This document shows, piece by piece, positions 52,193-52,283 of a DNA stretch of 64,000 nucleotides. The position numbers were made by a program, and so were the translations under genes. Source of the stretch: the human T2T-CHM13v2.0 reference genome, Homo sapiens. Each line of letters starts with the position of its first letter. Position 1 is the stretch's first letter. The notes under the pieces were generated by a model, which saw only the letters and a program-made list of their open reading frames with translations, was not told where the DNA came from and did no database searches. The stretch lies in NCBI RefSeq assembly GCF_009914755.1, contig NC_060929.1. One strand, 5' to 3'.

Positions 52193-52283
52193 TTAACCCC
52201 TTGGCGCTGGCGGTCACGGTGCGTCTCATTGCCGGCAATGGAAGTGTGCCGGGAAATCCCAACTCCCGGCGTCAAGGGATTAA
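52193..52283. other. TTAA-flanked inverted-repeat element / RNA hairpin in intron 46
   Basis: 18-nt arms TTAACCCCTTGGCGCTGG and CCGGCGTCAAGGGATTAA; internal palindrome; 8 CpGs. Confidence 0.8.

What the first reader, a model, noticed from the sequence alone, without database searches (positions are those of the whole stretch)
52193..52283. TTAA-flanked, piggyBac-like CpG-rich hairpin at the NIPBL isoform A/B decision point
Seen: a 91-bp GC-rich island with 8 CpGs in an otherwise very AT-rich 548-nt intron. The arms 52193-52210 (TTAACCCCTTGGCGCTGG) and 52266-52283 (CCGGCGTCAAGGGATTAA) are inverted repeats with three differences. Two of them are G-U wobbles on the sense strand, so 17 of 18 positions pair as RNA. 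Inside are a perfect 14-bp palindrome CATTGCCGGCAATG (52227-52240) and a second stem GCCGGGA/TCCCGGC (52248-52254 with 52264-52270) that competes with the outer arm for the same CCGGC. The element lies after the isoform B poly(A) signal (52001), 4 nt before another AATAAA (52288), and 77 nt before the exon 47 acceptor. Established: TTAA target duplication with CCC...GGG ends marks piggyBac elements, and unconstrained CpGs decay quickly in methylated introns. Inference: a domesticated piggyBac-type MITE acting as a possibly bistable RNA structure or protein-binding site that controls intronic polyadenylation versus exon 47 splicing.
Basis: partly seen in the sequence, partly recalled or inferred. 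Interest (0 to 1): 0.85.

Follow-up and report, generated by a model that had tools for sequence, protein, structure and literature searches.

The report
Orphan CpG-rich hairpin in NIPBL's last intron
A 91-base GC-rich inverted repeat flanked by TTAA sits just before the last exon of the cohesin-loader gene NIPBL; it is real, has no copy elsewhere in the human genome and keeps its CpGs unusually well, but its transposon origin and any role in isoform choice are still unproven.

Summary
The 18-nt arms, 14-bp perfect palindrome, 8 CpGs, TTAA at both ends, the two AATAAA and the 77 nt to exon 47 are all there.

What exceeds chance is the CpG content. CpG o/e is 1.00, against 0.27 for the window, 0-0.66 for the other 24 introns and 0.11-0.59 for Alu-sized repeats. 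The fold is not exceptional: -41.2 kcal/mol, z -3.1, but 45 of 9130 same-size windows in these 64 kb are as extreme after GC correction.

The element is an orphan in the human genome:
- A similarity search finds only itself.
- Its end motif is not enriched, 43 against 58 in the control.
- Its ends differ from MER85/PGBD3 ends.
- The paired-end look-alikes are one single-copy 57-bp repeat and a stretch inside a larger repeat.

So it is not a young high-copy MITE. An old piggyBac-type origin stays plausible, about 45%, but unproven. CpG retention implies constraint or hypomethylation. I could not test conservation, covariation or any effect on the A:B ratio, because no vertebrate sequence was reachable. 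"Bistable" is weak: the competing fold takes 2.4% of the ensemble.

The parts
51813..51857 (+). Isoform B coding extension of exon 46 (VRRRRSQRISQRIT, stop TAA at 51855-51857). It has 5 CpGs in 45 nt.
   Evidence: Translation; CpG list; isoform B described in PMC4100155 and PMC5372497 (passages).
51854..51859 (+). Second 5' splice site (tac|GTAAAA) overlapping the isoform B stop codon. Joined to exon 47 it would give ...QRITH*.
   Evidence: The hub annotation lists an exon 51624-51853; sequence and computed translation.
52001..52006 (+). AATAAA of the proximal (isoform B) intronic poly(A) site; cleavage near 52023.
   Evidence: PMC4100155 (passage) reports 211 bp of intron 46 in the B cDNA, and 51813+211 is about 52023. 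Predicted unpaired, p 0.94-0.99.
52193..52196 (.). Left flanking TTAA, a putative target-site duplication.
52197..52210 (.). Left arm CCCCTTGGCGCTGG, a putative terminal inverted repeat and the 5' strand of the outer stem.
   Evidence: pair I2; pairing probability 0.99.
52227..52240 (.). Perfect 14-bp palindrome CATTGCCGGCAATG, 4.5 nt from the centre of the element. It forms the apical stem-loop.
   Evidence: stem probability 0.93. My estimate of the chance of a perfect 14-mer palindrome within the 55-nt interior is about 0.003.
52248..52270 (+). Side region holding the small hairpin GGG-AAAU-CCC (52251-52260) and the alternative stem GCCGGGA/TCCCGGC, which competes with the outer stem for 52266-52270.
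   Evidence: The enforced alternative fold is -39.7 against -41.2 kcal/mol and holds 2.4% of the ensemble.
52266..52279 (.). Right arm CCGGCGTCAAGGGA, a putative terminal inverted repeat. One extra base lies between GGG and TTAA.
52280..52283 (.). Right flanking TTAA.
52279..52293 (+). ATTAAA (52279) and AATAAA (52288) directly 3' of the hairpin, followed by a GU/U-rich stretch at about 52315-52345. Together they look like a second intronic poly(A) site.
   Evidence: unpaired probability 0.42-0.89 for 52288-93. The hub table lists no transcript ending here, so use is not shown.
52321..52360 (+). Probable branch site (tgtaAc, about 35 nt from the acceptor), polypyrimidine tract and AG of the exon 47 acceptor.
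   Evidence: Sequence. The branch site is inferred from the recalled yUnAy consensus. PMC4100155 (passage) gives this acceptor a low predictor score of 0.41.

Best explanation
The 91-nt element is one long imperfect palindrome: outer 18-nt arms, a central perfect 14-bp palindrome, and partly complementary sequence between them. It is single-copy in the human genome.

Origin (inferred, about 45%): a relic of an old TTAA-inserting, piggyBac-type foldback element or MITE whose relatives have decayed beyond recognition.

Present state (inferred, about 75%): its sequence is protected, since it keeps every CpG in a gene body where all other introns, the exons and primate-age repeats have lost most of theirs.

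Mechanism (inferred, about 30%): on the sense pre-mRNA it folds into a stable stem-loop about 42 nt upstream of the probable branch point of the weak exon 47 acceptor, directly in front of a second AAUAAA. There it would set how fast the last intron is removed, as opposed to being retained or cut at an intronic poly(A) site, and so tune the NIPBL A:B ratio.

Shown: the sequence anatomy, the predicted fold, single-copy status and the CpG excess. Inferred: the age, the constraint, the transposon origin and the regulatory effect.
For: - Anatomy and position.
- Fold: the + strand folds better than the - strand (-41.2, z -3.09, 1 of 200 shuffles, against -35.4, z -2.23, 6 of 200). The outer stem keeps p 0.99 when folded within 191, 291 and 548 nt (the whole intron) and 0.69 within 1103 nt. 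The stem-loop is present in the whole-intron minimum-energy fold.
- CpG excess: o/e 1.00, against 0.27 for the window, 0-0.66 for the other 24 introns, at most 1.04 (mostly below 0.6) for the NIPBL exons, and 0.11-0.59 for 18 Alu-sized masked repeats.
- Not a recent copy of anything in the genome.
- piggyBac signature: TTAA/CCC...GGG/TTAA plus an internal palindrome. Real piggyBac elements have this layout: MER85 ends read from genome copies, and palindromes next to the ends that bind the transposase (PMC3459987, passages; PMC12324416, passages).
- Context: the exon 47 acceptor scores low and both isoforms are reported as conserved in vertebrates (PMC4100155 and PMC5372497, passages).
Against: - No cross-species alignment, covariation, methylation, structure-probing or 3'-end data could be obtained, so constraint and function rest on CpG retention alone.
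- Hypomethylation without selection would also keep CpGs.
- The fold energy is not exceptional for the window: 45 of 9130 windows are as extreme after GC correction.
- Rfam has no match. The best hit overlapping the element scores 19 bits against a threshold of 42.
- No family was found. A similarity search finds only the element itself. The end 15-mer occurs 43 times against 58 in the control. A relaxed paired-end pattern gives 5 against 14 and 3 against 4.
- The only candidate relative is a single 57-bp repeat, with inner similarity p 0.0165 in one of four comparisons.
- The right end reads GGGA-TTAA, not GGG-TTAA.
- The G-U bias of the arm differences (2 of 3) is what neutral transitions would give.
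Confidence: 0.35

Rival explanations
1. A structured or protein-bound conserved element that arose in place, not from a transposon. The TTAA ends are the chance result of a GC-rich stem running into AT-rich intron.
For: The element is an orphan in the genome. TTAA is frequent here, 6 in 457 nt, and is self-complementary, so a 4-bp stem extension into A/T sequence reads TTAA at both ends in roughly 2-6% of cases (my estimate). The right end has an extra base between GGG and TTAA.
Against: TTAA followed at once by CCC on one side and GGG(A) on the other, plus an internal palindrome, is the specific piggyBac layout. By my estimate the joint chance is about 0.1-1% after allowing for other transposon signatures a reader could have matched.
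Confidence: 0.3
2. A neutral relic with no role. The CpGs survive because this short stretch escapes germline methylation or because the insertion is young.
For: No function has been shown, and the fold energy is unexceptional for the window. The three arm differences look like ordinary transitions, one of them a CpG-to-TpG change (CTGG against CCGG).
Against: No possible source copy exists in the genome, which speaks against a young origin. Primate-age repeats in the same gene body have lost most CpGs (o/e 0.11-0.59). With recalled human CpG mutation rates (about 1e-8 per CpG per year), I estimate that 8 of 8 methylated CpGs survive 40 My only about 5% of the time.
Confidence: 0.2
3. It works as DNA. 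The palindromic, CpG-bearing site binds a dimeric, possibly methylation-sensitive factor or a piggyBac-derived protein, and affects polymerase passage or 3'-end choice.
For: There is a perfect 14-bp palindrome with a central CCGG. Its halves resemble recalled RFX X-box and C/EBP half-sites, and GGGAAATCCC fits the recalled NF-kB consensus; these are leads only. PMC12324416 (passages) reports PGBD5 at human piggyBac-like elements and at inverted repeats able to form hairpins. A bound factor would also explain CpG protection.
Against: No motif scan, ChIP or methylation data were available. I saw no CTCF-like core by eye. The motif resemblances are recalled and imperfect: the spacing and outer bases differ.
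Confidence: 0.15

Closest known systems
MER85 / PGBD3 piggyBac MITEs of the human genome
   Same: TTAA at both ends, ends starting CCC and finishing GGG, short length, and an internal palindrome near the end that in MER85 binds the transposase.
   Different: MER85 ends read TTAACCCATTTATGC and its palindrome is GTTCCATTATTGGAAC, with 343 exact copies of that palindrome in the genome. The NIPBL element reads TTAACCCCTTGGCGC, has a different palindrome, is GC/CpG-rich and has no second copy.
MER75 / Looper (the other human piggyBac families)
   Same: Same superfamily signature would be expected.
   Different: Indirect test: these are described in the passages read as dispersed repeat families, yet the NIPBL end motif is not enriched (43 against 58 in the control). 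The element therefore does not carry the ends of any abundant family.
RNA stem-loops that govern last-intron or 3'-end processing (MAT2A hairpins with METTL16; the HTLV-1 Rex-response element bringing AAUAAA near its cleavage site), recalled
   Same: A stable stem-loop close to a terminal-intron acceptor and directly upstream of a poly(A) hexamer, at a choice between splicing, retention and cleavage.
   Different: No shared sequence motif: no UACAGAGAA in the element. No factor is known and no functional data exist for NIPBL.
Ancient low-copy conserved repeats of Repbase/Dfam (for example the MER121, MER130, Eulor and UCON classes), recalled
   Same: Old, low-copy, often hairpin-forming, kept under constraint in vertebrate non-coding DNA.
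   Different: Membership is untestable here because no Dfam library was available. No diverged copy was seen with the pattern searches.

Membership tests
piggyBac-superfamily non-autonomous element (MITE) | Flanking TTAA target-site duplication | tested here: met
   TTAA at 52193-96 and 52280-83. Weak on its own, since TTAA occurs 6 times in the other 457 nt of the intron.
piggyBac-superfamily non-autonomous element (MITE) | Terminal inverted repeats beginning CCC and ending GGG directly next to the TTAA | tested here: inconclusive
   The left end is TTAA|CCCC. The right end is GGGA|TTAA, with one extra base or a C-to-T change. The arms match at 15 of 18 positions.
piggyBac-superfamily non-autonomous element (MITE) | Other copies in the genome sharing ends and internal sequence | tested here: not met
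   The similarity search finds only the element itself. The end 15-mer occurs 43 times against 58 in the control. None of 29 single-arm look-alikes has a partner arm within 1.5 kb. The strict paired pattern adds only a single-copy 57-bp repeat and a stretch inside a larger repeat. The relaxed pattern is not above control. Very diverged copies could be missed.
piggyBac-superfamily non-autonomous element (MITE) | An autonomous partner (DDE_Tnp_1_7 transposase element) with the same ends | tested here: inconclusive
   There are 26 PF13843 matches in the genome. Ends could be read only at the PGBD3 locus (TTAACCCATTTATG), and they differ. No ends were recovered at the other 11 loci examined.
piggyBac-superfamily non-autonomous element (MITE) | An empty site (single TTAA) in a species or paralogue lacking the insertion | not testable with these tools
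   No vertebrate genome other than the window's own was reachable.
MER85 | Ends CCCATTTATGC and the 16-bp palindrome GTTCCATTATTGGAAC | tested here: not met
Conserved cis-regulatory RNA structure | Fold more stable than composition predicts | tested here: inconclusive
   z -3.09 against shuffles, but 45 of 9130 windows of the 64 kb are as extreme after GC correction.
Conserved cis-regulatory RNA structure | Compensatory base changes across species | not testable with these tools
   No orthologous sequences. A covariance model was built but could not be run on this genome.
Any Rfam family | Score at or above the family's gathering threshold | tested here: not met
   There are 9 matches at E up to 10 in 51500-53000, none near threshold. 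ARAGORN finds no tRNA.

The most novel reading that the evidence does not exclude
An ancient piggyBac-type foldback element was captured in the last intron of NIPBL. It is now kept nucleotide-for-nucleotide as a switch, acting either as an RNA stem-loop or as a methylation-sensitive palindromic DNA site. The switch would decide between exon 47 splicing, intron retention and two intronic poly(A) sites, and so set the ratio of the isoform with the C-terminal domain to the isoform without it in the cohesin loader. It would also be a non-coding target for unexplained Cornelia de Lange cases.
Probability: 0.12. Interest if true: 0.75.

Novelty: new member of a known kind. Interest (0 to 1): 0.42.

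Why it matters
[quoted passage not shown] Its two C-terminal isoforms are reported as conserved in vertebrates and expressed in parallel across tissues (PMC5372497, passages). No cis-element for the A/B choice turned up in my four NIPBL literature searches (listings only), and none of four strings from the element occurs in the searched full texts.

A CpG-perfect hairpin 77 nt from the exon 47 acceptor is a concrete candidate that can be tested by deletion. If it proves conserved it would also be a clean case of a transposon relic reused in RNA processing. If it is not conserved, it is an ordinary orphan repeat.

Tried and rejected
- Rfam at a permissive E-value and ARAGORN found nothing.
- Young high-copy MITE is rejected: the similarity search finds only the element itself.
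- The 18-mer arm with up to 3 mismatches gave 771 places against 233 in the control. The 29 loci fetched share nothing beyond the 18-mer and none has a partner arm. I read the excess as composition and unrelated repeats.
- The strict paired-end pattern first looked like a family, with C9, C15 and CX against 0 in the control. Those three, plus C3, are 93-100% copies of one stretch whose similarity runs well beyond both TTAA. More diverged copies of the larger unit on C1 and C12 also carry it. It is therefore part of a bigger repeat and not an independent MITE.
- A 57-bp TTAA-flanked repeat on C1 is single-copy and only marginally similar inside.
- Gap ranges of 76-106 nt gave nothing. Relaxed patterns were not above control.
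- MER85/PGBD3 ends were compared and rejected. MER75 and Looper ends could not be recovered.
- I tried to reach orthologues through host contamination in the bacterial and viral collections, using the exon 47 protein. No relative was found.
- A covariance model was built, but the human genome cannot be searched with it.
- The long-range helix 52071-89/52280-98 listed has pairing probability 0 in the intron fold, so I dropped it.
After that, papers could be judged only from search listings, and the supplement of PMC12324416 with the MER75/Looper sequences was not seen.
- The window file carries no soft-masking, so NCBI's repeat call for this 91-nt stretch is unknown.

Full report
**What is there.** The window is CHM13 chr5:37262001-37326000, and the element lies at chr5:37314193-37314283.
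- It has TTAA at both ends.
- It has 18-nt arms with 15 Watson-Crick positions, two G-U and one C-A on the + strand (pair I2).
- It has a perfect 14-bp palindrome at 52227-52240.
- It has a small GGG-AAAU-CCC hairpin.
- It has a 7-bp stem (52248-54 with 52264-70) that shares CCGGC with the right arm.

Aligning the left half against the reverse complement of the right half gives 32 matches, 8 mismatches (5 of them transitions) and a few gaps. No shuffle out of 5000 scored as well. The whole 91 nt is therefore one long imperfect palindrome. Outside the outer arms, the similarity between the halves is only marginal (p 0.067, a figure that includes the central palindrome).

**Context.** The element lies in the 548-nt intron 46 of NIPBL.
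- The first 45 nt of the intron encode the isoform B tail VRRRRSQRISQRIT*.
- AATAAA at 52001 fits the 211 bp of intron reported in the B cDNA (PMC4100155, passage).
- The element starts about 170 nt after that cleavage site and ends 77 nt before exon 47.
- Directly 3' of it lie ATTAAA (52279), AATAAA (52288) and a GU/U-rich stretch, followed by the probable branch site and a long pyrimidine tract.
- The hub annotation also lists an exon ending at 51853 and an exon 51624-53653. So a second donor and full intron retention exist as well, and in the retained form the hairpin would sit in a mature 3' UTR.

**Is it more than chance?** Composition is. GC is 0.59-0.61 against 0.19-0.30 in the flanks, and there are 8 CpGs with o/e 1.00.
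- The window as a whole has CpG o/e 0.27.
- Of 4376 windows of 91 nt with GC of at least 0.55, 0.78% reach the element's o/e.
- Only the GC-rich block near 1075-1861 has windows with as many CpGs.
- Intron 46 has o/e 0.98 against 0-0.66 in the other 24 introns. Its excess comes from two clusters, the B coding extension and this element.
- Eighteen Alu-sized masked repeats of the window have o/e 0.11-0.59.

The fold is less special.
- The + strand gives -41.2 kcal/mol, z -3.09, with 1 of 200 shuffles as good.
- The - strand gives -35.4, z -2.23, with 6 of 200 as good.
- In a scan of 9130 windows of 91 nt across the 64 kb, 64 had an energy as low, and 45 had a GC-corrected residual as low.
- The stem is robust to context: p 0.99 in 91-548 nt and 0.69 in 1103 nt. 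It appears in the whole-intron minimum-energy fold.
It holds 2.4% of the ensemble, rising to 20% in the 1.1-kb context.

**Is it a known RNA or repeat?** Rfam gives nothing near threshold, and ARAGORN finds no tRNA.

A similarity search of the whole human genome with 121 nt finds only the locus itself. That rules out a young, high-copy MITE.

The single-arm searches gave no family either.
- The 18-mer arm with up to three mismatches is 3.3-fold over the reversed control, 771 against 233. The 29 fetched loci share nothing else and none has a partner arm.
- A degenerate 15-mer of the end is not enriched, 43 against 58. No abundant family therefore carries these ends.

The paired-end searches did not hold up.
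- A strict paired-end pattern gave three further places against none in the control. These, with a fourth on C3, are near-identical copies of a stretch embedded in a larger repeated unit. Its older copies on C1 and C12 also contain the stretch.
- The gap range of 14-44 nt gave one single-copy 57-bp TTAA-flanked repeat on C1. Its inner similarity to the NIPBL element is p 0.0165 in one of four orientation-and-locus comparisons.
- The range of 76-106 nt gave none.
- Relaxed paired patterns were at or below control: 5 against 14, and 3 against 4.

MER85 and PGBD3 ends, read from genome copies, are TTAACCCATTTATGC and differ from this element's ends. Ends of the other piggyBac-derived loci could not be recovered.

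**What this means for origin.** The TTAA/CCC...GGG/TTAA layout with an internal palindrome is the piggyBac layout (passages in PMC12324416 and PMC3459987; MER85 copies). I estimate its joint chance here at roughly 0.1-1%. But the family test fails, and the right end has an extra base. I put an old piggyBac-type origin at about 45%, and an origin in place at about 30%.

**What this means for constraint.** Any piggyBac insertion in the human lineage should be at least as old as the Alus of this window; the age of the last piggyBac activity is recalled, not tested. Those Alus have lost most CpGs, and no source copy exists for a recent origin. With recalled CpG mutation rates, I estimate that eight methylated CpGs all survive 40 My in about 5% of cases. 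The CpGs are therefore most likely protected, by selection or by lack of methylation. This is indirect evidence.

Attempts to reach orthologous sequence failed, and the covariance model cannot be run on this genome. The arm differences do not discriminate. All three are transitions, and a neutral transition gives a wobble on a given strand half the time.

**Mechanism.** My best guess is that the sense-strand stem-loop sits about 42 nt upstream of the probable branch point of an acceptor with a low predictor score (PMC4100155, passage), just before a second AAUAAA. There it would influence how quickly the last intron is spliced, rather than retained or cleaved. A DNA-level reading, a palindromic CpG site bound by a dimeric factor, is a live rival. 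So is a neutral relic.

**Prior description.** No paper describing this element appeared in my searches.
- The four NIPBL term searches were judged from listings only. From, two papers were also read in passages.
- Four sequence strings from the element gave 0 papers in the searched full texts.
- Papers that mention NIPBL together with ultraconserved or highly conserved 3' UTR fragments were listed but could not be read. They and their supplements may bear on conservation.

**Verdict.** The element is an orphan, CpG-preserving hairpin in a biologically interesting place. The decisive tests are a vertebrate alignment, a Dfam search and a deletion experiment, all outside what I could run.

Noticed in passing
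window 51850-51861: A second 5' splice site (tac|GTAAAATG) overlaps the isoform B stop codon. The hub table lists an exon ending at 51853. Joined to exon 47 it would encode ...SQRITH*, a B-like tail made by splicing rather than by intron retention or intronic polyadenylation.
   Followed up: partly
window 52279-52345: ATTAAA and AATAAA lie directly after the hairpin, followed by a TTTTGTGT/U-rich stretch that overlaps the branch site and pyrimidine tract of exon 47. This looks like a second poly(A) site competing physically with the acceptor. No annotated transcript ends there.
   Followed up: partly
window 51813-51857: The isoform B coding extension holds 5 CpGs in 45 nt (o/e 2.0), all in or next to arginine codons. 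This is the other CpG cluster that makes intron 46 an outlier.
   Followed up: no
L033 1501-1568 (C9), L034 (C15), L035 (CX), L036 (C3); diverged copies L063 (C1) and L064 (C12): A 68-bp TTAA-flanked inverted repeat with ends TTAACCCCTTGAC.../...GCCAAGGGGTTAA lies inside a larger repeated unit of at least 480-660 nt, present in 6 or more places at 69-100% identity. I did not identify the unit.
   Followed up: partly
L061 1501-1557 (C1:242915764-242915820): A single-copy 57-bp TTAA-flanked inverted repeat whose ends match the NIPBL arm apart from CpG-type changes (GGCA and GGTA where NIPBL has GGCG). It shares AAATCCCCAACT at the same distance from one end. It may be a decayed relative.
   Followed up: partly
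window 52227-52260: The palindrome ATTGCC|GGCAAT resembles recalled RFX X-box and C/EBP half-sites with unusual spacing, and GGGAAATCCC fits the recalled NF-kB consensus. Both come from memory and were not scanned with matrices.
   Followed up: no
window 281-1917: A GC-rich (up to 0.84), CpG-dense masked block overlaps the two RefSeq enhancer features. It is the only other place in the window with 8 or more CpGs per 91 nt.
   Followed up: no
window 3196-3352: A 67-nt inverted repeat, 79% complementary, lies inside a masked repeat. It gives the most extreme GC-corrected fold energy of the window, -51.3 kcal/mol.
   Followed up: no
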